Part shown: in pieces, positions 39,969 through 63,656 of the stretch
How the letters are laid out: the number at the start of each line of letters is the position of its first letter
How positions within the stretch are numbered: the first letter of the stretch is position 1
Assembly (NCBI GenBank): GCA_963741945.1
Contig: CAVUKA010000001.1
Span: forward strand, 1,152,001-1,216,000
DNA from: an uncultured Gemmatimonadales bacterium
Lineage (GTDB): Bacteria; Gemmatimonadota; Gemmatimonadetes; Longimicrobiales; RSA9
Reading direction: 5' to 3'
Length of the DNA stretch: 64,000 nucleotides
Notes under the pieces: model-generated
Told to the model about the DNA's origin: nothing
The model's input: only the letters and a program-made list of their open reading frames with translations
Database searches by the model: none
Made by a program: the position numbers and the translations under genes

Positions 39969-42900
39969 CTACGTCCCCGGCTCGTCGGGGCGTGCCGCCT
40001 TCTTCACGAACGGCGGGTGCGCGCTCGGTTTCACGTGGTCGGTGGCAAGCAGCCTCATGGCCTCGGCCACGGCGCGTTCGAGCTGGGGATCGCGGCCGGC
40101 GGCATAGGCTTTCGCATCGAAGTAGACGGGGATGTCGGGGGGGACGCCCTCGTTCTCGGCCACCCAGTGGTCGCCGGAGAAAACGGCGCTGCAGGGGGAA
40201 GTGATGTAGCCGCCGTCGACGAGAGCATAGGGCCTGCATGCGGCGACGAGGCCGCCCCAGGTGCGCTGGCCGATGAGCGGACCGATGCCAAGCTGGCGGA
40301 AGGCCCAGGGGAAGTAGTCGCCGCCGGAGCCGGCGAGCTCGTTGATGAGCAGCACCTTGGGCCCGAGGATCCCGGCCATGGGGAGGCGGTAGTCGGTACC
40401 GTGAGCGGCGTCGTTGGTGACGCCGCCGATGAGCGTGCGGCCCATGAGATCGACCATGTAGTCGTCGAGGAGCCCACCGCCGTTGAAGCGCTCGTCGATG
40501 ACCGCGCCGTCGCGGTCCTGCTGGGCAAAGAAGTAGCGGTTGAAGTTGACGAACCCGCTTCCGCCGGTGTTCGGCACCCAGACGTAGGCCAGCCGGCCAT
40601 TGGAGAGCGAGTCGACCATGCGGCGGTTGTCCTCGACCCACGCGCGCTGCCGGAGCGCGCCCTCGCTGCGCACCGGAACGACGGTGACCGTCCACGATCC
40701 GTCGAGCGCGGGCCGGCTGTTCAGGCGCAGCACCGTCTGCTGGTCGGCGGTCCCGTCCAGCCACTGGTACGGGTTGTCGGCAGCCGTGAGCTCGCGGCCG
40801 TTCACGGCCAGGAGGTAGTCGCCTTCGGACGCGTGCACACCCGGCGCGGCCAGCGGGGCCGAGAGCTCCGGGTTCCAGCTCTCCGCGGTCAGGATCCGCT
40901 GGATGCGCCAGCGGCCGTTGCGGACCACGAGGTCGGCGCCCAGCAGCCCGCCCCGCACCGTGTCCACGGCCGGGTAGTCGCCGCCGCCCGTGAAGCTGTG
41001 GCCGACGCTCAGCTCGCCGCCGACCTGATCGAGGATGTAGCGCAGGTCCTCGCGGCTCCGCACGTACGGCACGAGCGGGGCGTAGCGCGCGTGGACGGCC
41101 GCCCAGTCGGCGCCGTGGAGTCCCGGGTCATAGAAGAAGTCGCGCTCGATCCGCCACGCTTCCTCGAAAACCTGCCGCCATTCCTCGGCCGGGTCGACCC
41201 GCATCCGGAGTGCGACGTCGAGCTTTCCGTCGCCGGGCTTGGGCGGGGACCCTGTCCCGACGACGTGCCACGACGACCCCGACCGGTGGAGCAGCTTCGA
41301 CCCGTCGCGCGAGAGGGCGAAGCTGCGCGCGCCTTCCAGGAACGTGTCGTCCTTCCGCTTCTCCATGTCGAACCGATGCAGCGTGAGGCCGGGCGCGTTC
41401 TCCGGGCGCTCGGCCAGGAACACCACGCCTCGCGGCCCCGCGGCCAGCTCCACGTAGCGGCGCACGGGCAGCGGCAGCGCCACGATGCGCCGGGCGACGC
41501 CGGCCGTGTCGATGCGCACGTCCACGGCCGAGTCCGCGCCTCCCGTTTCCGACGGCAACGCCCGGGCGCCCGCGCCAGCGCCGCCGCCGGTGCCCGCCTG
41601 GGCGTCCGGGGCATGGCCCGGCTCGTCGTCGCTCTCGGGCATGAACGGGGTCCGGTCGTCGCTCCGCAGCACGGCCACATACGCGCCGTATGTGGGGTCC
41701 GCCTGCGCGTTGCTCAGGTTGGCCCATCCACTGGCGAGGCCGAGGTCGGTGCTGGCGAGGAAGTAGAGCCAGCGCCCGCCGGCGTCCCAGGCCGGGGAGA
41801 CGGCGTCGGCGAGCGGATCGGTAAGCGGCGTCGCCTTGCCGGTGTCCAGCGACCAGGCGACGATGCGGTGGAAGTGGTTCGCGTACTCCTTCGCGTACGC
41901 CAGCCATCTGGAGTCGGGGGACCAGGTCAGCCCGAGGCCGCGCCGGTTCTGGATCGTGCCGTCCACGTCCGCGGTGCGGAGCGTTCCGCTCGCCAGCTCC
42001 ATGACGTGGATCCGCGCTCGCTGGTCCACCCACGCCAGCCGCTGGCCGTCCGGTGACCATGTGGCCGACCACGCGTACTTCGTCTCGTCCCCCAGATCGA
42101 GCGCGCGGGCTTCCCCGAGCCCGTCCTGGTCACCGACCATCAGGCGGTAACCCTCGCCTGCATCGGAAAACCACGCCACTGTGGACCCGTCGGGCGACCA
42201 GAGGGGGGAGCGGTCGGCGGCGCCGGAGGAGCGCGTGAGGTTCCTCGGATCGCCCTTCTCCGCCGGAATCGTGAAGATCTCGCCCCGGGCCTCGAACAGC
42301 GCCCGCTTCCCGGTGGGTGAAAGCGAGGCCGACGCGATTTCGTCGCTCACGGCCTCCCAGTGGGGCGCCGCCCACGGGAATTCGCCGCGCACCGTCACAT
42401 CCAGCTTTCGCGCCTGACCGCTGCCAGGATCCAGGAGCCAGAGCCAGCCATCCTGCTCGAACGCCAGCGCATCGCTCGCGCCGCCGCCCAGCGCCTTCAC
42501 ATCGGCATCGGCGAAGCGGGTGACCTGCGCCAGGTCGCCCGTGGCCACGTCGTAGCGCCACACGTTCGTGGCATGGCCACGGTCGGAGAGGAACCAGATG
42601 CGATCCCCCAGCCATACCGGCTGTGTGTCGGTGGTGCGCTCATTGGGGAGCATCACCTCGGAGAGGTCGTCCAGGTCCAGGATGGTGAGCGCCGTGTTCT
42701 GGCCGCCACGGTAGTTCCGGAACTCACTGTCCCACCGCGGGACCCGGTCGATGACGAGCCGCCTCCCGTCGGGCGAGAACGACGCCCTCGCCGCCATGGG
42801 CTCCGGCACTTCATGCGACGGTCCCCCTTCCGCGGGAACGAGCCACAGCCGCGTGTATCCCACCGGCGCGGACGCTCGGGCGGACGCGTACAGGACTTCG

Positions 42901-43334
42901 TCGCCGTCTGGCGTCCAGCCGCGGGCTTCCGCGCCACCGCCCGGATACCACGTCAGGCGACGCGGCTCCCCACCCTGCGCGGCCACCACCCAGACCTGGT
43001 CCGATCCGGTCCGGTTGGACGTAAAGGCGATCTGCCTGCCATCGGGGGAGAAGTGCGGGCCGGTCTCGATGGCGGGAGTGGCCGTGAGTCGACGGGCCTC
43101 CCCACCCTGCCGTCCCACTACCCAGAGGTCGCCGCCGTACTCGAACGCGACCTCGGTGGCGGAGACGGTGGGGGATCGGAGGAGGCGCGTCGGCTGCCCC
43201 GGCGTACCCTGCCCCGCGAGCGGGCGACCGCCGCCGGTCGAGGACAGCGCGACACCTCCGAGGAGGGCCAGAAGGGCGAGGACGCGAACGCTGCGCGCCC
43301 GGGCGGGCGCGGGCCGGGAACGGGACGAAGGCAT
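39969..43334 (-). CDS. Tricorn-like S41 protease (beta-propellers, PDZ, catalytic domain)
   Basis: PD40-type SPDG repeats, GELSVGH, IDERFNGGG, GSGGDYFP, RTWGG and ENEGVPPD; signal peptide. Confidence 0.93.
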   Translation of the reverse strand: MPSSRSRPAPARARSVRVLALLALLGGVALSSTGGGRPLAGQGTPGQPTRLLRSPTVSATEVAFEYGGDLWVVGRQGGEARRLTATPAIETGPHFSPDGRQIAFTSNRTGSDQVWVVAAQGGEPRRLTWYPGGGAEARGWTPDGDEVLYASARASAPVGYTRLWLVPAEGGPSHEVPEPMAARASFSPDGRRLVIDRVPRWDSEFRNYRGGQNTALTILDLDDLSEVMLPNERTTDTQPVWLGDRIWFLSDRGHATNVWRYDVATGDLAQVTRFADADVKALGGGASDALAFEQDGWLWLLDPGSGQARKLDVTVRGEFPWAAPHWEAVSDEIASASLSPTGKRALFEARGEIFTIPAEKGDPRNLTRSSGAADRSPLWSPDGSTVAWFSDAGEGYRLMVGDQDGLGEARALDLGDETKYAWSATWSPDGQRLAWVDQRARIHVMELASGTLRTADVDGTIQNRRGLGLTWSPDSRWLAYAKEYANHFHRIVAWSLDTGKATPLTDPLADAVSPAWDAGGRWLYFLASTDLGLASGWANLSNAQADPTYGAYVAVLRSDDRTPFMPESDDEPGHAPDAQAGTGGGAGAGARALPSETGGADSAVDVRIDTAGVARRIVALPLPVRRYVELAAGPRGVVFLAERPENAPGLTLHRFDMEKRKDDTFLEGARSFALSRDGSKLLHRSGSSWHVVGTGSPPKPGDGKLDVALRMRVDPAEEWRQVFEEAWRIERDFFYDPGLHGADWAAVHARYAPLVPYVRSREDLRYILDQVGGELSVGHSFTGGGDYPAVDTVRGGLLGADLVVRNGRWRIQRILTAESWNPELSAPLAAPGVHASEGDYLLAVNGRELTAADNPYQWLDGTADQQTVLRLNSRPALDGSWTVTVVPVRSEGALRQRAWVEDNRRMVDSLSNGRLAYVWVPNTGGSGFVNFNRYFFAQQDRDGAVIDERFNGGGLLDDYMVDLMGRTLIGGVTNDAAHGTDYRLPMAGILGPKVLLINELAGSGGDYFPWAFRQLGIGPLIGQRTWGGLVAACRPYALVDGGYITSPCSAVFSGDHWVAENEGVPPDIPVYFDAKAYAAGRDPQLERAVAEAMRLLATDHVKPSAHPPFVKKAARPDEPGT

Positions 43335-50577: not shown

Positions 50578-50661
50578 GGAGGTGTAGTCCTAATTGGTAA
50601 GGCACCGCACTCGAAATGCGGCGGGCGCAAGCCCATGGGGGTTCGAGTCCCTCCACCTCCG
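50578..50661 (+). tRNA. tRNA-Ser(CGA)
   Basis: GGAGGTG/CACCTCC acceptor, loop CTCGAAA, long variable arm, G73. Confidence 0.9.
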
Positions 50662-50676
50662 CTGACGCCAACGAGG

Positions 50677-50713
50677 GAAGGCCCCGGCGGTTTTCACCGC
50701 CGAGGCCTTTTTT
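50677..50713 (+). terminator. Intrinsic terminator after tRNA-Ser
   Basis: AAGGCCCCGGCGG-TTTTCA-CCGCCGAGGCCTT followed by T-run. Confidence 0.85.
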
Positions 50714-50903
50714 CGTCCCGCCCGCCGTCCGGAGAAAGTTGCCCCCCGTTTACCTGTGGGCTACCCTCCCCCGGCGGCAGTTCCGGAAGGAGGCGCGGCA
50801 TCCGGAGTGGCCGCTCGTGGCGAAGCTCCGGCTCACAATGCTTCCGCGTGGGCGCTCGGGAGGGCCCGCCGCGGTCACTCTTACCGTGGACAGGAAGAGA
50901 CCC

Positions 50904-52037
50904 ATGAGCGCGATGCCCGTGACGGCGCGGCTGACGGTAGCGGCGATGATGATGCTCGGCTTGTGCGGGTGCGGCGAGGGGGGCGGGGACTCCGGTCCCG
51001 TCGCACCGGAGAAGTCGGCGCCCACGGTGAAGACGATGGGCGTGAGCAACATCCTCTACAGCGCCGCCAGGGTCCGCGTCCAGATCGTGTCGAACGGAGG
51101 AGGCACGGTCACGGACAAGGGGATCTGCTGGGCCGGGCACCCCGATCCCGCCATGGCGGACCACTGCCTCTCCGACGCGGGATCAGCCTATGACTTCGCG
51201 GTCCTCATCCACGGTCTGGAGGCCAACACCGCTTACAACGTCCGGGGGTACGCCACCAACGGGTACGGCACGGCGTGGGGGGAGAACCTCCCGTTCACGA
51301 CGCTTCAGGAGGGCACCCTTCCCGCTTCGGTGGACCCGCTGATGGTTTCGAAGTGGGACGTCTTCCACTGGCCGTACAACGCCTTCTACCCGCCATACCA
51401 GGGCAATGGAGCCCCCAACGGCCGGTTCGGGGCGGCGTGTGGGCCGACCGCCTTCGCCCGCGTCCTCGGGTACTGGGGAGGCAGGATCACGGCCACGGGC
51501 CAGATCGACGCGCCGAACACGTGGGGCGACGTGCAGATGCAGGTCGACTTCGACACGCTCGTCGTGGACTATTCGAACCTGCCGGTCTCCCTGGGGTCCG
51601 GCGCGACGTTCGAGCAGTACGTGGACGTGGCCAGGGTCTTCCTCATCGCCGGTGCCATAGGACTGACCAACCAAATGGATGTCGGGACCCCGGGCGACGT
51701 CTTCATCGACGGCCTCAAAAGACATCTGAACGTCAGCGACAACGTCCGATTCGCGAGACGGTGGGAGTACTCGAGGGCGGACTGGATCGCGCTCCTCAAG
51801 AACGAGCTGGCCCACGGCCGCCCGCTGATGATCGCCGCCCGGAGCACGGATTCACCCGCGCCGGACGAGCCGGGAAGCGTGGCCGGTCACTGGTACGACA
51901 TCGAGGGATACGACGCCCAGGACCGGTTCTACATCGACTACAACATGGGCGGGTTCCGGGGCTATTTCGACGTGGATGAGTTCGGTGACTACCGGGCGTA
52001 CGGCCTGGTGGTGGTGGGGTTCGAGCCGGGCAGCTGA
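50904..52037 (+). CDS. Lipoprotein with FN3-like domain and papain-fold C10-like peptidase domain
   Basis: LCGC lipobox; GLEANTAYNVRGYATN.YGTAWG (FN3-like); ACGPTA (Cys) and GHWYDIEGYD (His). Confidence 0.7.
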   Translation: MSAMPVTARLTVAAMMMLGLCGCGEGGGDSGPVAPEKSAPTVKTMGVSNILYSAARVRVQIVSNGGGTVTDKGICWAGHPDPAMADHCLSDAGSAYDFAVLIHGLEANTAYNVRGYATNGYGTAWGENLPFTTLQEGTLPASVDPLMVSKWDVFHWPYNAFYPPYQGNGAPNGRFGAACGPTAFARVLGYWGGRITATGQIDAPNTWGDVQMQVDFDTLVVDYSNLPVSLGSGATFEQYVDVARVFLIAGAIGLTNQMDVGTPGDVFIDGLKRHLNVSDNVRFARRWEYSRADWIALLKNELAHGRPLMIAARSTDSPAPDEPGSVAGHWYDIEGYDAQDRFYIDYNMGGFRGYFDVDEFGDYRAYGLVVVGFEPGS

Positions 52038-60022: not shown

Positions 60023-61042
60023 CTAGGGCAGCGGTCGTTCCGTGATCTCGCGCATCTCCCGCCGCGCGGCGGGGGAACGGACCTCTCGAAGCCACAGCAG
60101 CGCGAGCGCCGGTATTCCCACCAGCACGTCCCGCAGCCGTTTCAGCAGCGACACGGCCACCCCCACTGCGGCCGTGAGCCCCACGAGGTGCGCGCCCAGC
60201 AGGTATCCGCCTTCCTGGGCTCCGAGCCCCGCGGGCATGAAGAACCCCGCGTTCGCGGCCGCGCGGCCGACGCTCTCGAATACCACCATGTCCCGGGCGC
60301 CGATGAACTGGTGAACGGCGTACAGCAGCATCCAGATCTCTGCGGCGGCGAAGAAGAAGCTCAGGAAATGCCAGCCGGCCGTGCGGGCGAGGGCTCGGGT
60401 CTCGCCATAGATGGTGCCGATGGTGTCGTCCACGCCGTTGATGCTGCCGGCGAACCTGAGCCACCGGTCGCGCTCCGCTCGACGCTCCAGACGGGTGGCG
60501 AGCTTCCGCAGCAGGTTGGCGCGCTGGGCATAGACCAACGAGCCGAGCATTACGATGAGGATCGCCCCCGCCACCGCGGTATCGGTCGCGCTCTGGCCGC
60601 GAATCGCCAGGAGGCTCAGTCCGCAGCCGATGAACAGGGCCAGGGACACCATCCGGAGCGTCAGCTCCACGATGATGACGGCCGCCGACACCGTTCCCCC
60701 GACTTCCGGACGATGCCGCGCCAGCAGATAGCCGCGCATGACGTCGCCGGCCACTTCCGGACCGGGCAGCAGCGCCTGCGACCCGTCCGCGACCCAGCGG
60801 TAGTAGAAGATGTCCCGGAACGGCGCGTTCGCACCGTTGGCGTGCAGCAGGCTCCGCCACGCCATGGCCAGGATGGCGATGTAGGCGAAGTGCGCCACGG
60901 CGAGCAGCGCCACCCACCACCCCGCTTCGCGGAGCATCCCCCAGATGCGGGCGGGTCCCGCGTGCAGGATGAAGAAAACCGTGAGCCCCAGCCCCAGGGC
61001 GAGGAGGAGCGCTCCCCAGACCCTGACCCGGGCGCGGGTCAC
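60023..61042 (-). CDS. Lysylphosphatidylglycerol-synthase TM domain / HpnL-like membrane protein
   Basis: LLP..EVAGD and FFMPAGLGAQEGGY..G...SLLKRLRD; GTGA-coupled to the radical SAM gene. Confidence 0.78.
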   Translation of the reverse strand: MTRARVRVWGALLLALGLGLTVFFILHAGPARIWGMLREAGWWVALLAVAHFAYIAILAMAWRSLLHANGANAPFRDIFYYRWVADGSQALLPGPEVAGDVMRGYLLARHRPEVGGTVSAAVIIVELTLRMVSLALFIGCGLSLLAIRGQSATDTAVAGAILIVMLGSLVYAQRANLLRKLATRLERRAERDRWLRFAGSINGVDDTIGTIYGETRALARTAGWHFLSFFFAAAEIWMLLYAVHQFIGARDMVVFESVGRAAANAGFFMPAGLGAQEGGYLLGAHLVGLTAAVGVAVSLLKRLRDVLVGIPALALLWLREVRSPAARREMREITERPLP

Positions 61043-62733
61043 CCGGCGCGCCTCGTCTCGAGCTGGACGAGCGAGCCAGGGCGCGCATCGCCGGCGCCGG
61101 GGTGCACCTCCGCCGGTGCGCCATCGGGCGAGTAGAAGGAGTACTCTCCCACGCCGGCGTCGCAGTCCCGGGCGAACTGGATCAGGTGGTGCGCCACCAT
61201 CGGGACATGGACCAGCGACTCGATCTTCCCCTGCCGCAGGGCGGGGAGGGCGAACCGCCAGAAGGTCCGGCGGTAATCGCCGCGCACACCCACGCGCCAG
61301 AAGGTGCGGGCTAGCATGCCGAGTCCCTTGCGCAGCGATCCCTCAGGGATCGTCCGGTTCTCGCCCGGGTCGAACCGGTGGGGATAGGTGTGATCCACCT
61401 GGTGCTGGAAGCGACGGTAGAGCGCCTCCGGCCGGTTCGCCTCCCGCACCGCGCGCAGCCATCCTTCTCGCACCGTTTCCCGCGGCAGCTTGAAGTCGAC
61501 ATTCGACTCGTCGCCGCCCGCACCGTCGGAGAGGATGCGTCCTTCCTTCTCCAGCCGCCGCCAGAGCGGTGTCCGCGGGAGAGCGTACAGGAGGTTGATG
61601 GTGAGCATCGGGATATGAGATGCCTCGATGAACTCGAGGATCCGGTCCGGCGTCTCCTCCGTGTCCGAGTCCAGCCCCATGATGATCCCCGAAACCACTT
61701 CGAAGCCGTAGGAGTTCAGGATCTGCACGGCTTCAAGGATCGGCATCCCGAGGTTCTGCTTCTTGGAGATCCCGGCCAGCGACTCCTCGTCAGGGGTCTC
61801 GATCCCCACGAACACGGTGTGGAACCACGCCTCCCGCATGAGCTCCAGGATCTTCGTGTTCCTCGCCACGTTGATGGAGAGCTCGCAGGCCAGGCTCAGG
61901 GGGTAGCCGTTCCTCCGCTGCCAGTCCACCAGGTGCGGCAGGATCTCCAGCGCGGCCTTCTGGCTCCCGATGAAGTTGTCGTCCACGAAATACACGGCGC
62001 CCGGCGCTCCGGCCTCCATGAGAGCGTCCAGCTCCGCGCACACCTGCTCCGGCGTCTTCAGCCGCGGCACGCGGCCGTACAGCTCCGGGATGTCGCAGAA
62101 CTCGCAGCGGAACGGGCAGCCGCTGGAGTACTGGATGCTGGCCAGGAAGTAGTCGCGCACGTCGATGTGCTCGTAGGCCGGCAGCGGGAACTCGTGCAGC
62201 GGCCGCCGATCGGTGGTCTCGTACCGCAGCTGCTCGGGCGGGCGCTCCACGGTGCGGGCGATCCGATCGAAGAGCGCATCCGTTCCATTGCCCAGCTCGC
62301 CGAGGTGGAGCAGGTCCACGTCCGGGTACCACTCCGGGCACGCCGATACGGACGGCCCTCCCAGCGCCGTGACGAGGCCGTGCCGGTGCGCCGCGGCGTT
62401 GACTTCCCGGATACGCTCTCGCTGCACGTGCATCCCGGTGATGAACACCGCGTCCGCCCACTCGTAGTCCTCGTCGCTCGCGCGCCCGAGGTTCTCGTCC
62501 ACGAACCGGACCTCCCACGCGTCCGGGATCGCGCCGGCCACGACCAGCAGCCCCTGTGGGGGCATGAACGCCCTGGCCCGCCCGTGCAGCGGATACGCGT
62601 GGTGCAGCGTGCCGAAGGAGCGGGCGTACTGCGGGAACACGCACAGGATCCTGCGGGCCGGTCCCTTCCTTGTCGGCGTGCGCGTTCGGTGCGGACTGTC
62701 GGGGATCAGGCGTCTCGTGTCTTCTCGTCCCAT
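61039..62733 (-). CDS. hpnP: B12-binding radical SAM enzyme, HpnP-like hopanoid C-2 methylase
   Basis: RRILCVFP.Y..SFGT..H.YPL, AFMPPQGLL, GGPSVSACP.WYP..D.LH.GELG, QYSSGCPFRCEFCDIP.LYGR.PRLKTPEQ, LTINLL.ALP.TPLW and ESNVDF match my recollection of HpnP. Confidence 0.82.
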   Translation of the reverse strand: MGREDTRRLIPDSPHRTRTPTRKGPARRILCVFPQYARSFGTLHHAYPLHGRARAFMPPQGLLVVAGAIPDAWEVRFVDENLGRASDEDYEWADAVFITGMHVQRERIREVNAAAHRHGLVTALGGPSVSACPEWYPDVDLLHLGELGNGTDALFDRIARTVERPPEQLRYETTDRRPLHEFPLPAYEHIDVRDYFLASIQYSSGCPFRCEFCDIPELYGRVPRLKTPEQVCAELDALMEAGAPGAVYFVDDNFIGSQKAALEILPHLVDWQRRNGYPLSLACELSINVARNTKILELMREAWFHTVFVGIETPDEESLAGISKKQNLGMPILEAVQILNSYGFEVVSGIIMGLDSDTEETPDRILEFIEASHIPMLTINLLYALPRTPLWRRLEKEGRILSDGAGGDESNVDFKLPRETVREGWLRAVREANRPEALYRRFQHQVDHTYPHRFDPGENRTIPEGSLRKGLGMLARTFWRVGVRGDYRRTFWRFALPALRQGKIESLVHVPMVAHHLIQFARDCDAGVGEYSFYSPDGAPAEVHPGAGDARPGSLVQLETRRAG

Positions 62734-62909
62734 GGACAGCTCCGGGTAAGGAAGAACTCGCGCGGCTATCCGACCGGCAGCGCAAGACATGTTCCCGCTC
62801 CAGGCCATCGCGCGCGGGGCCCGGAGCCGTACATTGGGCACATGGGGGAGCCCCGGGGCGCCGCCCGACGCCAGCCGGAACCCGCGCGAACCTCCAACCG
62901 GAGCCGGAG

Positions 62910-63656
62910 ATGGACCACCGCGTGGTGCCGCGCCGCGTAACCACGATCGCCGCGCTGGCGACGCTGATGTCGGCCGCGCCCGCGTGCCGCCGGAGCGCCG
63001 ATGTCTGGCTGGAAGGGCGGACCCTCTCCGCAACTTCCCGGGGCACGGCCGATGACGCCTCGCCTGCCCACCCGGCCGCGTCCTACACGCTCGACAGCAG
63101 GGAGCTGTGGGCGGCGGACAGTCTGACGTCCGCGTACTCCGAGCCGCCGCGCGCCGGGAGGCTGGCGGGCGGCGTGGCCGCCCAGCCCGTGGACACGGCC
63201 ACCGGCCTCGACGTCCGCTATGCCACTGCGCGCTCGGTGAGCCGCGTCGTCTTCCCCATGGAAGTCCGGAAGGCGGGGCGCGTGGAGCTGCAGATCGACC
63301 TGGCGCTCGCCGACGTCGAGATCGGAGGCACGGGGCTCCCGCGCGTCGAAACGAGCGGCGCGATCCTGGACCAGGACGGCGCGCCGGTCCCCGGCGGGGA
63401 CATCGGCACCCTCACACTGGAGATCCGCGGCGACGGGGCCGTGGTCATCGACCAGTTCCCCGACGCTACGGATGCCCTCCAGGCGAACGGCCGCTATACG
63501 CGCACCCTGAGCGGGCCGCTCGGAGGCGTGCGCCTGGCCCGCGGCCGCTATCAGGTGGGGATGGACCTGTGGCTCGAGGCCTCCGCCGCCACGGCGAGCG
63601 GGCCGTACCAGCTCGCGCGCATCGGGCAGGCGACGGCGACGCTTCGCGTCCCCTGA
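62910..63656 (+). CDS. Hypothetical exported protein
   Basis: Signal-like N-terminus with Cys, beta-rich body, GC3 bias. Confidence 0.65.
   Translation: MDHRVVPRRVTTIAALATLMSAAPACRRSADVWLEGRTLSATSRGTADDASPAHPAASYTLDSRELWAADSLTSAYSEPPRAGRLAGGVAAQPVDTATGLDVRYATARSVSRVVFPMEVRKAGRVELQIDLALADVEIGGTGLPRVETSGAILDQDGAPVPGGDIGTLTLEIRGDGAVVIDQFPDATDALQANGRYTRTLSGPLGGVRLARGRYQVGMDLWLEASAATASGPYQLARIGQATATLRVP

What the first reader, a model, noticed from the sequence alone, without database searches (positions are those of the whole stretch)
60023..62733. HpnP-like hopanoid C-2 methylase in an unexpected lineage, coupled to an HpnL-like gene
The radical SAM protein follows, along its length, motifs I recall from Rhodopseudomonas HpnP, beyond the generic B12/DUF4070 family. 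It is GTGA-coupled to an HpnL-like membrane protein, a family found in hopanoid clusters. Known: HpnP makes 2-methylhopanoids, key geological biomarkers, and is chiefly reported from Alphaproteobacteria and Cyanobacteria with a few Acidobacteria. Inference: a probable Gemmatimonadota carrier would widen the biomarker's source range, and the hpnP-hpnL pairing is unusual. No shc is in this window.
Basis: partly seen in the sequence, partly recalled or inferred. Interest (0 to 1): 0.78.

Follow-up and report, generated by a model that had tools for sequence, protein, structure and literature searches.

The report
Hopanoid 2-methylase gene in a Gemmatimonadota genome
A soil-type bacterium of the phylum Gemmatimonadota carries a gene very like the enzyme that makes 2-methylhopanoids, lipids used as geological biomarkers, which adds one more rare source lineage to a list that was already known to be patchy.

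Summary
At 61039-62733(-) lies a 564-aa B12-binding/radical-SAM/DUF4070 protein. Its stop overlaps (GTGA) the start of a 339-aa HpnL-family membrane protein at 60023-61042(-).

The radical SAM protein belongs to the HpnP orthogroup:
- It is 54-62% identical to cyanobacterial and Methylobacterium orthologues.
- It keeps 38 of 40 HpnP-specific signature residues.
- It groups with HpnP, apart from HpnP-like paralogues, in two trees (support 97-99).
- Its position inside the HpnP clade is unresolved: either sister to cyanobacteria or early-branching.

The genome is Gemmatimonadota, Longimicrobiales-like by RecA. It has shc, hpnH and hpnA 1.1 Mb away. It has no cobQ and one B12 riboswitch.

Orthologues are very rare in the phylum: 3 of 401 genomes sampled from the order, and none of 400 others sampled from the phylum. 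All three carriers have shc and three hpnL paralogues, and in relatives the hpnL copies sit beside shc. The hpnP-hpnL adjacency is specific to this genus.

Gemmatimonadota is not among the 12 phyla of the 2023 HpnP survey. However, sporadic, transfer-like occurrences were already described there. This is a new member of a known kind, of moderate interest, and the enzyme activity is untested.

The parts
61039..62733 (-). hpnP orthologue: cobalamin-dependent (class B) radical SAM methyltransferase, 564 aa. It has an N-terminal Rossmann-like B12 domain, the cluster motif C206-x3-C210-x2-C213, and a C-terminal DUF4070.
   Evidence: Pfam domains. Alignment with invariant CxxxCxxC. HpnP-clade placement. 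Signature residues 38 of 40. Fold model and Foldseek hits to cobalamin radical SAM enzymes.
60023..61042 (-). hpnL-family gene: 339-aa polytopic flippase-like membrane protein, one of three paralogues in the genome.
   Evidence: TIGR03476 at 187.2 bits (cut-off 195.65), TIGR00374 at 43.9 bits (cut-off 43.2) and PF03706. Paralogues at C3:40221-41237 (201.3 bits) and C7:60000-61022 (192.2 bits). Orthologues and paralogues lie beside shc in G1013 and G454.
61039..61042 (-). GTGA overlap: the hpnP stop TGA shares bases with the hpnL start GTG, an arrangement typical of translational coupling in one operon.
   Evidence: Read directly from the sequence. Gene order and adjacency are conserved in the same-genus genome G454.
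62734..62909 (.). 176-bp divergent intergenic region between hpnP and a lipoprotein-like ORF. It is presumed to hold the promoter of the hpnP-hpnL operon.
   Evidence: Inference from gene layout. No sigma-70-like site and no Rfam element was found.

Best explanation
The two genes form an hpnP-hpnL operon in a Gemmatimonadota (Longimicrobiales-like) bacterium that can make hopanoids. HpnP is a cobalamin-dependent radical SAM methyltransferase. By analogy with class B enzymes and with characterised HpnPs (inferred, not shown here), it uses one SAM to load methylcobalamin and a second SAM, cleaved at the 4Fe-4S cluster, to abstract hydrogen at C-2 of the hopanoid A ring; the methyl group is then transferred to give 2-methylhopanoids. 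The substrate comes from the genome's shc-hpnH-hpnA cluster, which sits with mevalonate-pathway genes. B12 is probably imported, because cobyric acid synthase was not found and a cobalamin riboswitch is present. HpnL is a flippase-like membrane protein of unknown function that belongs to the hopanoid gene set. The most likely guess is that it translocates or modifies hopanoid lipids in the membrane. The whole set (shc, hpnH, hpnA, three hpnL copies, hpnP) is confined to a few Longimicrobiales genomes. It was most likely gained by horizontal transfer, or kept from an ancestor and lost almost everywhere else.
For: Orthology.
- In a library clustered at 50% identity, one full-length representative scores 646 bits (55% identity). 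The next full-length one scores 393 bits (42%).
- The protein is 58-62% identical to named cyanobacterial loci and 54-57% identical to Methylobacterium loci.
- JGI names 11 of the 120 listed relatives 'hopanoid C-2 methylase'.
- In both trees the HpnP clade, with the query inside it, is split from 17 or 8 paralogue outgroups with SH-aLRT 99 and 97.
- 143 of 152 invariant columns and 38 of 40 clade-signature columns are kept.

Pathway.
- shc scores 636 bits (cut-off 431), hpnH 355 bits (cut-off 225) and hpnA 418 bits (cut-off 368), in one cluster with squalene-synthase-like and mevalonate-pathway genes.
- A weak HpnG-like match lies inside that cluster.
- All three Gemmatimonadota hpnP carriers have shc.

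B12.
- No cobQ match over the cut-off was found.
- One cobalamin riboswitch scores 66 bits.

Host.
- RecA relatives are named Longimicrobiales or Gemmatimonadota.
- The single-contig relative G1013 carries recA (78%), shc and hpnP (74%) together, which rules out a binning artefact.

HpnL link.
- G1013 has three TIGR03476 genes (220, 195.9 and 217.4 bits) directly beside shc-hpnH-hpnA.
- G454 has one copy beside shc and one after hpnP.
Against: - No enzyme activity or lipid data exist for this lineage.
- Under the site-heterogeneous model, the query's 8-row clade falls outside the 25-row clade (support 97) that holds all phyla with confirmed 2-methylhopanoid production. It sits in a basal polytomy with a Myxococcaceae homologue whose genome lacks shc over the cut-off. 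Hoshino et al. doubt a hopanoid role for such early-branching homologues (section 7 read).
- The alternative position, sister to cyanobacteria, is not rejected (p-AU 0.43) but is not established either.
- My trees contain no experimentally tested sequence. Nostoc, Methylobacterium and Beijerinckiaceae loci stand in for them.
- No curated HpnP model was available to score against. The best NCBIfam hits are other class B families, far below their cut-offs.
- The Pfam B12-binding match is below the gathering score.
- The HpnG match (65 bits against 187) and the absence of HpnN leave the extended-hopanoid branch and transport unclear.
- The hpnP-adjacent HpnL copy is just under the TIGR03476 cut-off.
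- In G1013 hpnP is not next to any hpnL, so the adjacency itself carries little functional weight.
Confidence: 0.75

Rival explanations
1. The protein is an early-diverging HpnP-clade homologue that methylates something other than C-2 of hopanoids, such as another terpenoid or lipid, or another position. The organism would then make no 2-methylhopanoids.
For: The mixture-model tree puts its clade outside the alphaproteobacterial, acidobacterial and cyanobacterial crown group, next to a Myxococcaceae homologue from a genome without shc over the cut-off. Hoshino et al. state that activity is confirmed only for late-branching phyla. hpnP is unlinked to shc in this genome.
Against: The protein keeps 38 of 40 signature residues shared by cyanobacterial and alphaproteobacterial HpnPs, more than the Myxococcaceae sequence keeps (33). 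It is 54-62% identical to the crown group. All three Gemmatimonadota carriers have shc. The sister-to-cyanobacteria topology is not rejected. Lack of synteny with shc is the rule for true HpnP (Hoshino, passage seen).
Confidence: 0.17
2. The hpnP-hpnL operon is a recent single-gene-pair insertion from another phylum, for example the soil clade labelled Thermoanaerobaculia or Rokubacteria-like bacteria. It would be a passenger with no settled role in this host.
For: Orthologues occur in only 2 of 73 family genomes, 3 of 401 order genomes and none of 400 other phylum genomes sampled. The nearest non-Gemmatimonadota relatives, at 66-72% identity, are soil-metagenome sequences, three of them labelled Thermoanaerobaculia.
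Against: GC3 is native-like. Synteny is conserved across the two species of the genus. G000-to-G1013 identities of HpnP (74%), HpnH (73%), HpnA (63%), HpnL (59%) and SHC (57%) scale alike relative to G454, which suggests one shared history for the whole hopanoid set rather than a late hpnP add-on. This is a hint from three genomes only. Of the 16 metagenome loci of the close soil clade (63-72% identity, L119-L134), none carries hpnL nearby, so the pair was not transferred as such.
Confidence: 0.06
3. The finding is an assembly or binning artefact: the contig belongs to a known hpnP phylum.
For: The genome is an 8-contig assembly with 2.17% estimated contamination. The RecA used for taxonomy lies on another contig, C3.
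Against: The window lies in a 1.41-Mb contig that makes up a third of the genome. Base composition is uniform. The same gene order occurs in G454. The one-contig 4,456,228-bp genome G1013 of the same order holds hpnP, shc and a 78%-identical recA together.
Confidence: 0.02

Closest known systems
HpnP, hopanoid C-2 methyltransferase of Rhodopseudomonas palustris TIE-1 and Nostoc punctiforme (KEGG K22705). That these two are the validated enzymes is recalled, and both appear in the taxon list of Hoshino et al. seen.
   Same: It has the same three-domain architecture and the CxxxCxxC motif. It is 54-62% identical to orthologues from the same genera or families. It keeps 143 of 152 invariant and 38 of 40 signature columns. 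It falls in the same clade against paralogues. It is unlinked to shc, and the genome has a single copy each of hpnP and shc.
   Different: The host phylum is Gemmatimonadota. The clade forms its own branch whose position relative to the validated enzymes is unresolved. The gene is translationally coupled to an hpnL gene. Activity has not been tested.
Rokubacteria (Methylomirabilota) HpnP clade of Hoshino et al. 2023 (PMC10697835)
   Same: It is a well-supported, separate, high-GC soil clade of HpnP with untested activity. In the LG tree my 19-row clade sits beside cyanobacteria, and the order of their taxon list suggests the same for Rokubacteria.
   Different: Identity of the two clades was not tested, because I held no named Rokubacteria sequence. 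The only names in my clade are 'Thermoanaerobaculia bacterium'. The Longimicrobiales sequences form their own 3-row subclade (support 99).
HpnP-like DUF4070 radical SAM paralogues, which are widespread and occur in many Gemmatimonadota
   Same: They share the B12-binding, radical SAM and DUF4070 architecture. 102 of 400 other phylum genomes have such a homologue at E<=1e-20.
   Different: They are only 25-42% identical and score 337 bits or less. They keep 0-12 of 40 signature columns and form a separate clade.
HpnR, hopanoid C-3 methylase (TIGR04367)
   Same: It is a class B radical SAM hopanoid methylase.
   Different: The match is 56.5 bits against a cut-off of 650 and covers only the radical SAM core. 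The protein is not a member.
HpnL (TIGR03476) of Pseudomonadota hopanoid clusters, and the MprF flippase domain (PF03706)
   Same: It is a flippase-like polytopic protein of the same length, and its family members sit beside shc. Lawrence et al. 2025 (PMC12324291, passages seen) report hpnL enriched near shc and its function unknown.
   Different: Here there are three paralogues per genome in a phylum outside Pseudomonadota, and one copy is coupled to hpnP. The nearest relatives outside the three genomes and one short contig are 33% identical or less. There is no synthase domain as in MprF. A full MprF is encoded separately, at C1:46965-49508.

Membership tests
HpnP (hopanoid C-2 methyltransferase) | Architecture of B12-binding domain, radical SAM core and DUF4070 | tested here: met
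   Radical_SAM 61.5 bits and DUF4070 109.9 bits. B12-binding is 28.5 bits, below gathering score 32.1. The model shows an N-terminal Rossmann-like domain (pLDDT 66.8). The top Foldseek hits are the B12-domain radical SAM enzymes AprD4, CysS, MgmA, OxsB, TsrM and TokK.
HpnP (hopanoid C-2 methyltransferase) | CxxxCxxC motif for the 4Fe-4S cluster | tested here: met
   C206, C210 and C213 are invariant in the 13-sequence alignment A1.
HpnP (hopanoid C-2 methyltransferase) | Falls in the monophyletic HpnP clade, apart from HpnP-like paralogues | tested here: met
   SH-aLRT is 99 (LG+G4, 89 rows) and 97 (LG+C20 PMSF, 45 rows). There is a score gap from 646 to 393 bits in the 50%-cluster library.
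HpnP (hopanoid C-2 methyltransferase) | Nested among, or bracketed by, experimentally validated HpnPs | tested here: inconclusive
   The LG tree puts it sister to cyanobacteria (support 93). The C20 tree puts it outside the crown clade (support 97). The AU test does not reject the former (p 0.43). No validated sequence itself was in the trees.
HpnP (hopanoid C-2 methyltransferase) | Host genome encodes squalene-hopene cyclase | tested here: met
   TIGR01507 scores 636 bits against cut-off 431 at C1:59947-62217. The other two carriers also have it.
HpnP (hopanoid C-2 methyltransferase) | Passes a curated HpnP-specific model (KEGG K22705) | not testable with these tools
   No HpnP model appeared among the NCBIfam hits and no KEGG profile is available. 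JGI's name 'hopanoid C-2 methylase' is on 11 of the 120 listed relatives.
HpnP (hopanoid C-2 methyltransferase) | Produces 2-methylhopanoids | not testable with these tools
   This needs lipid analysis or heterologous expression.
HpnL (TIGR03476) | Scores over the curated cut-off of 195.65 bits | tested here: not met
   The hpnP-adjacent copy scores 187.2 bits, 8 bits short. The G000 paralogues score 201.3 (met) and 192.2. The G1013 copies score 220, 195.9 and 217.4 (met). I therefore call it HpnL-family or HpnL-like.
HpnL (TIGR03476) | Flippase-like LPG_synthase_TM fold without a synthase domain | tested here: met
   PF03706 scores 97.2 bits over residues 14-308 of 339. TIGR00374 scores 43.9 bits against cut-off 43.2.
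HpnL (TIGR03476) | Genomic association with hopanoid biosynthesis genes | tested here: met
   It is coupled to hpnP in G000 and G454. Copies lie beside shc-hpnH-hpnA in G1013 (three) and G454 (one). No copy was found in 90 order-mates or in three shc-positive, hpnP-negative genomes.

The most novel reading that the evidence does not exclude
In this lineage the HpnL paralogues are functionally tied to hopanoid methylation and not only to hopanoid synthesis. The subfamily occurs in all 3 hpnP-positive genomes (three copies each), in none of 3 shc-positive, hpnP-negative family members, and in none of 90 order-mates. One copy is translationally coupled to hpnP. HpnL could be the membrane partner that presents or flips hopanoids to the peripheral methylase, or that moves the methylated products. 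That would give the long-unassigned HpnL family a first concrete role.
Probability: 0.12. Interest if true: 0.6.

Novelty: new member of a known kind. Interest (0 to 1): 0.4.

Why it matters
2-Methylhopanes are used to read ancient microbial ecosystems, so every lineage able to make their precursors bears on how specific the biomarker is. This finding adds Gemmatimonadota, a common soil and sediment phylum, to the HpnP-bearing phyla. It also shows how rare the trait is there: 3 of 401 order genomes and none of 400 other phylum genomes sampled. The secondary result may be more useful. HpnL-family genes, until now reported mainly from Pseudomonadota and without a known function, travel with shc and hpnP in an unrelated phylum, which strengthens the case that HpnL is a true hopanoid-pathway component.

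Tried and rejected
- Binding of HpnP and HpnL: complex prediction on residues 26-540 of HpnP with full-length HpnL gave 'no answer' (score 0.00). It is neither for nor against binding.
- Mixture-model tree on 89 rows: two runs of 288 s did not finish. I replaced them with LG+G4 on 89 rows and C20-PMSF on 45 rows.
- Finding the empty insertion site: PrmA-centred 20-kb regions of five other genera of the family share no other gene with the G000 neighbourhood, so no before-and-after comparison was possible.
- Naming the donor:
  - The listing of cluster members gave no names for the close relatives.
  - A 400-genome Acidobacteriota sample centred on an Acidobacteriaceae carrier held no further orthologue.
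  - The protein atlas gave only generic family labels.
- Regulation: no riboswitch or other Rfam family, and no sigma-70-like promoter, was found around the operon. There was one terminator-like hit, at chance level.
- Solved structures by sequence: only two weak radical SAM core matches.
- HpnR, HpnJ or another named class B family as the identity: rejected, since all are far below their cut-offs.
- The published mSystems version of Lawrence et al. is not held.
Full report
**What is there.** The window is high-GC DNA (about 0.64-0.77 in 2-kb windows) and lies at C1:1152001-1216000 of an 8-contig, 4.09-Mb genome that is 96.7% complete with 2.2% contamination.
- At 61039-62733(-) is a 564-aa ORF with an ATG preceded by GGAG.
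- At 60023-61042(-) is a 339-aa ORF that starts with a GTG.
- The GTG overlaps the upstream TGA, so the genes share GTGA.
- GC3 is 0.90 and 0.89 for the two genes. The contig median is 0.87 over 788 likely-coding long ORFs.
- Pfam gives Radical_SAM, DUF4070 and a sub-threshold B12-binding match for the first protein, and LPG_synthase_TM for the second.
- NCBIfam gives no family over its cut-off for the first protein. The best hits are PhpK at 78 bits, HpnJ at 57 and HpnR at 56.5, against cut-offs of about 578-650.
- For the second protein NCBIfam gives HpnL TIGR03476 at 187.2 bits against 195.65, and TIGR00374 'flippase-like' just over its cut-off.

**Neighbourhood.** The pair stands alone.
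- Downstream, and convergent, are an AI-2E/PerM transporter, PrmA and a Ser/Thr kinase with TPR repeats.
- Upstream, across a 176-bp divergent gap, is a lipoprotein-like ORF.
- Beyond that lie an MFS transporter and citrate lyase, isocitrate dehydrogenase, aconitase and PrpD genes.
- No other hopanoid gene is nearby.

**Is it HpnP?** Four lines of evidence agree.
- The closest database relatives are unnamed. JGI of the 120 listed 'hopanoid C-2 methylase'. Named cyanobacterial proteins are 58-61% identical.
- A scan of species-representative genomes returned 80 named loci. Cyanobacterial loci such as Nostoc are 57-62% identical; Methylobacterium, Beijerinckiaceae and other Alphaproteobacteria 52-61%; Acidobacteriaceae 58-59%. 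Single Vulcanimicrobiota, Methylophilaceae, Geobacteraceae, Gammaproteobacteria and Myxococcaceae bins also appear.
- In a library clustered at 50% identity, the family collapses to one full-length representative at 646 bits. The next full-length protein has 393 bits and 42% identity.
- Of 152 columns invariant in 27 named HpnPs (14 cyanobacterial, 13 alphaproteobacterial), the query keeps 143, while 17 paralogues keep 84-104. Of the 40 such columns that at most 20% of paralogues share, it keeps 38. The low paralogue counts on those 40 columns are by construction; the query's count is the independent test.

A moderate AlphaFold model (pLDDT 66.8) matches B12-domain radical SAM enzymes best: AprD4, CysS, MgmA, OxsB, TsrM and TokK.

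**Trees.** I built a 90-row set as follows:
- the query;
- 25 of the 120 hits;
- 9 of the 150 representatives, one as ingroup and eight as outgroups;
- 41 of the 80 genome loci;
- 5 of the 80 metagenome loci;
- 9 of 29 Gemmatimonadota paralogue loci.

One row, L124, was dropped by the tool as too short.

Under LG+G4 the HpnP clade (72 rows) separates from the 17 outgroups with SH-aLRT 99. The query sits with P0004 (100) and P0005 (99) inside a 19-row clade (100) of soil sequences, three of them labelled Thermoanaerobaculia. That group is sister (93) to the cyanobacteria.

The mixture model did not finish on this set. On a 45-row subset, LG+C20-PMSF again recovers the HpnP clade (97). It places the query's clade outside a 25-row clade (97) of Alphaproteobacteria, Acidobacteriota/Vulcanimicrobiota and Cyanobacteria, in a basal polytomy with a Myxococcaceae sequence. 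An AU test does not reject the LG arrangement (delta lnL 3.2, p 0.43).

Membership of the HpnP clade is therefore robust. The position relative to the phyla with demonstrated 2-methylhopanoid synthesis is not. This matters because Hoshino et al. 2023 note that activity is confirmed only for late-branching phyla and doubt a hopanoid role for shc-less myxobacterial homologues (section 7 read). In my check the Myxococcaceae genome has no shc over the cut-off, while four other carriers do.

**Can the host make the substrate?** Yes.
- The genome has one cluster at C1:46965-62217. It holds shc (636 bits), hpnH (355), hpnA (418), type-2 IPP isomerase, HMG-CoA reductase, mevalonate kinase, a decarboxylase, isopentenyl phosphate kinase, a squalene-synthase-like gene, a GT4 glycosyltransferase and MprF.
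- A weak HpnG-like match (65 bits against 187) lies in the cluster.
- HpnN was not found.
- CobQ was not found, and one cobalamin riboswitch is present. This suggests B12 uptake rather than synthesis.

**Who is the host?** RecA (on contig C3) has 120 listed relatives. Every organism name among them that gives a taxon below 'bacterium' is Longimicrobiales, Gemmatimonadales or Gemmatimonadota, at 82-91% identity. NCBI places Longimicrobiales in Gemmatimonadota.

**Distribution in the phylum.**
- Among 400 other genomes sampled from the phylum, 102 have a homologue at E<=1e-20, but none exceeds 42% identity or 337 bits. These are paralogues.
- In the whole family held (73 genomes), only G000 and its congener G454 (88%) have the orthologue.
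- In a 401-genome sample of the order, 3 do. The third is G1013, a one-contig 4,456,228-bp genome of another family, at 74% identity.
- shc itself is rare: 5 of 73 family genomes. G1013 has it too.
- G454 keeps the gene order CitE-CitF-hyp-MFS-ORF-HpnP-HpnL-PerM-PrmA.
- G000's identities to G454 and to G1013 respectively are: RecA 95/78%, HpnP 88/74%, HpnH 84/73%, HpnA 80/63%, HpnL 79/59%, SHC 78/57%.
- The hopanoid genes thus diverge in step with each other. This hints that the set shares one history, but three genomes cannot separate ancient presence with loss from transfer within the order.

**HpnL.**
- The adjacency with hpnP is rare elsewhere. One of the 80 named loci shows it (an alphaproteobacterial bin, 28% identity), and none of the 80 metagenome loci does, including the 16 closest at 63-72% identity. 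Some flanks were short.
- In G1013 hpnP has no hpnL nearby.
- The subfamily is nevertheless tightly tied to the pathway. G000, G454 and G1013 each have three paralogues.
- In G1013 all three (220, 195.9 and 217.4 bits, over the cut-off) lie directly beside hpnA-hpnH-shc. In G454 one lies beside shc.
- None was found in 90 other genomes of the order (30 per family, E<=1e-8). None was found in the three shc-positive, hpnP-negative genomes of the family, whose completeness is 85-96%.
- Outside these genomes and one short contig, relatives drop to 33% identity or less.
- Lawrence et al. 2025 (passages seen) report hpnL enriched near shc, found mainly in Pseudomonadota, with its function unknown.

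**Novelty.**
- Hoshino et al. found HpnP in 12 phyla. It is concentrated in Rokubacteria, Alphaproteobacteria and Cyanobacteria and is sporadic elsewhere (passages).
- Their 135-taxon tree file carries the labels dP, aP, gP, Ac, Am, Vr, Pl, Nsr, Em, Ad, Rk and Cy. There is no Gemmatimonadetes label (part 1 of the file read).
- 'Gemmatimon' occurs nowhere in their main text or in the 8 supplement files held as text.
- Full-text searches gave 0 papers for hpnP with Gemmatimonadota and 2 irrelevant ones for hpnP with Gemmatimonadetes. One of those was checked by passages and the other by its listing only.
- Longimicrobi with hopan gave 1 paper, and Gemmatimonad with methylhopan gave 6. One of the six was checked by passages and another had been read earlier; the rest I judged irrelevant from the listing.
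- Naafs et al. 2022 and the published mSystems paper of Lawrence et al. are not held, so an earlier mention there cannot be excluded.

**Verdict.** This is a real hpnP orthologue, coupled to an HpnL-family gene, in a hopanoid-capable Gemmatimonadota genus.
- It is a new host phylum for a known enzyme family, found in very few genomes.
- The biochemical claim is probable (about 0.75) but untested.
- The biomarker consequences are small.
- The HpnL association is a useful lead.

Noticed in passing
window 62910-63656 (+): A conserved ORF runs divergent from hpnP. It starts MDHRVVPRRVTTIAALATLMSAAPAC, a lipoprotein-like signal with a lipobox cysteine. It has no Pfam family, and the same-genus genome G454 keeps it at 80% identity in the same place.
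   Followed up: partly
G000:C1:46965-62217 (outside the window): Hopanoid genes (shc, hpnH, hpnA, HpnG-like) are clustered with a full mevalonate pathway: HMG-CoA reductase, mevalonate kinase, a decarboxylase, isopentenyl phosphate kinase and type-2 IDI. A squalene-synthase-like gene, a GT4 glycosyltransferase and a bifunctional MprF are in the same cluster.
   Followed up: partly
G000:C3:40221-41237 and G000:C7:60000-61022: Two further HpnL-family paralogues, 41% and 43% identical to the hpnP-adjacent copy. The first lies beside patatin-like, TetR and KAS III genes. The second lies beside a GT9-like glycosyltransferase.
   Followed up: partly
L227 (G1013:C1:570001-590000): In a genome of another family of the same order, three HpnL genes sit directly next to hpnA-hpnH-shc. 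A trehalase and an SDR gene are close by.
   Followed up: yes
L090-L118 (Gemmatimonadota genomes): HpnP-like DUF4070 radical SAM paralogues (25-42% identity) are common in the phylum: 102 of 400 other genomes sampled, some with two or three copies in tandem. Their function is unknown.
   Followed up: no
L042, L052, L076, L047, L054 (genome contigs): HpnP-clade orthologues occur in bins labelled Methylophilaceae, Gammaproteobacteria, Geobacteraceae and Vulcanimicrobiota. The Methylophilaceae sequence nests among cyanobacterial ones, which may mean transfer or mis-binning.
   Followed up: no
window 39969-43334 (-), window 50616-52037 (+), L003 8651-16286 (-): Other genes noted while annotating: a tricorn-like protease (PD40, PDZ and S41 domains), a C10-family peptidase, and a run of citrate lyase alpha and beta/ACP-fusion, isocitrate dehydrogenase, aconitase and PrpD genes upstream of the operon.
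   Followed up: no
G000:C4:52704-52889 (+): This is the only cobalamin riboswitch match in the genome (66 bits). I did not look at the gene it controls.
   Followed up: no
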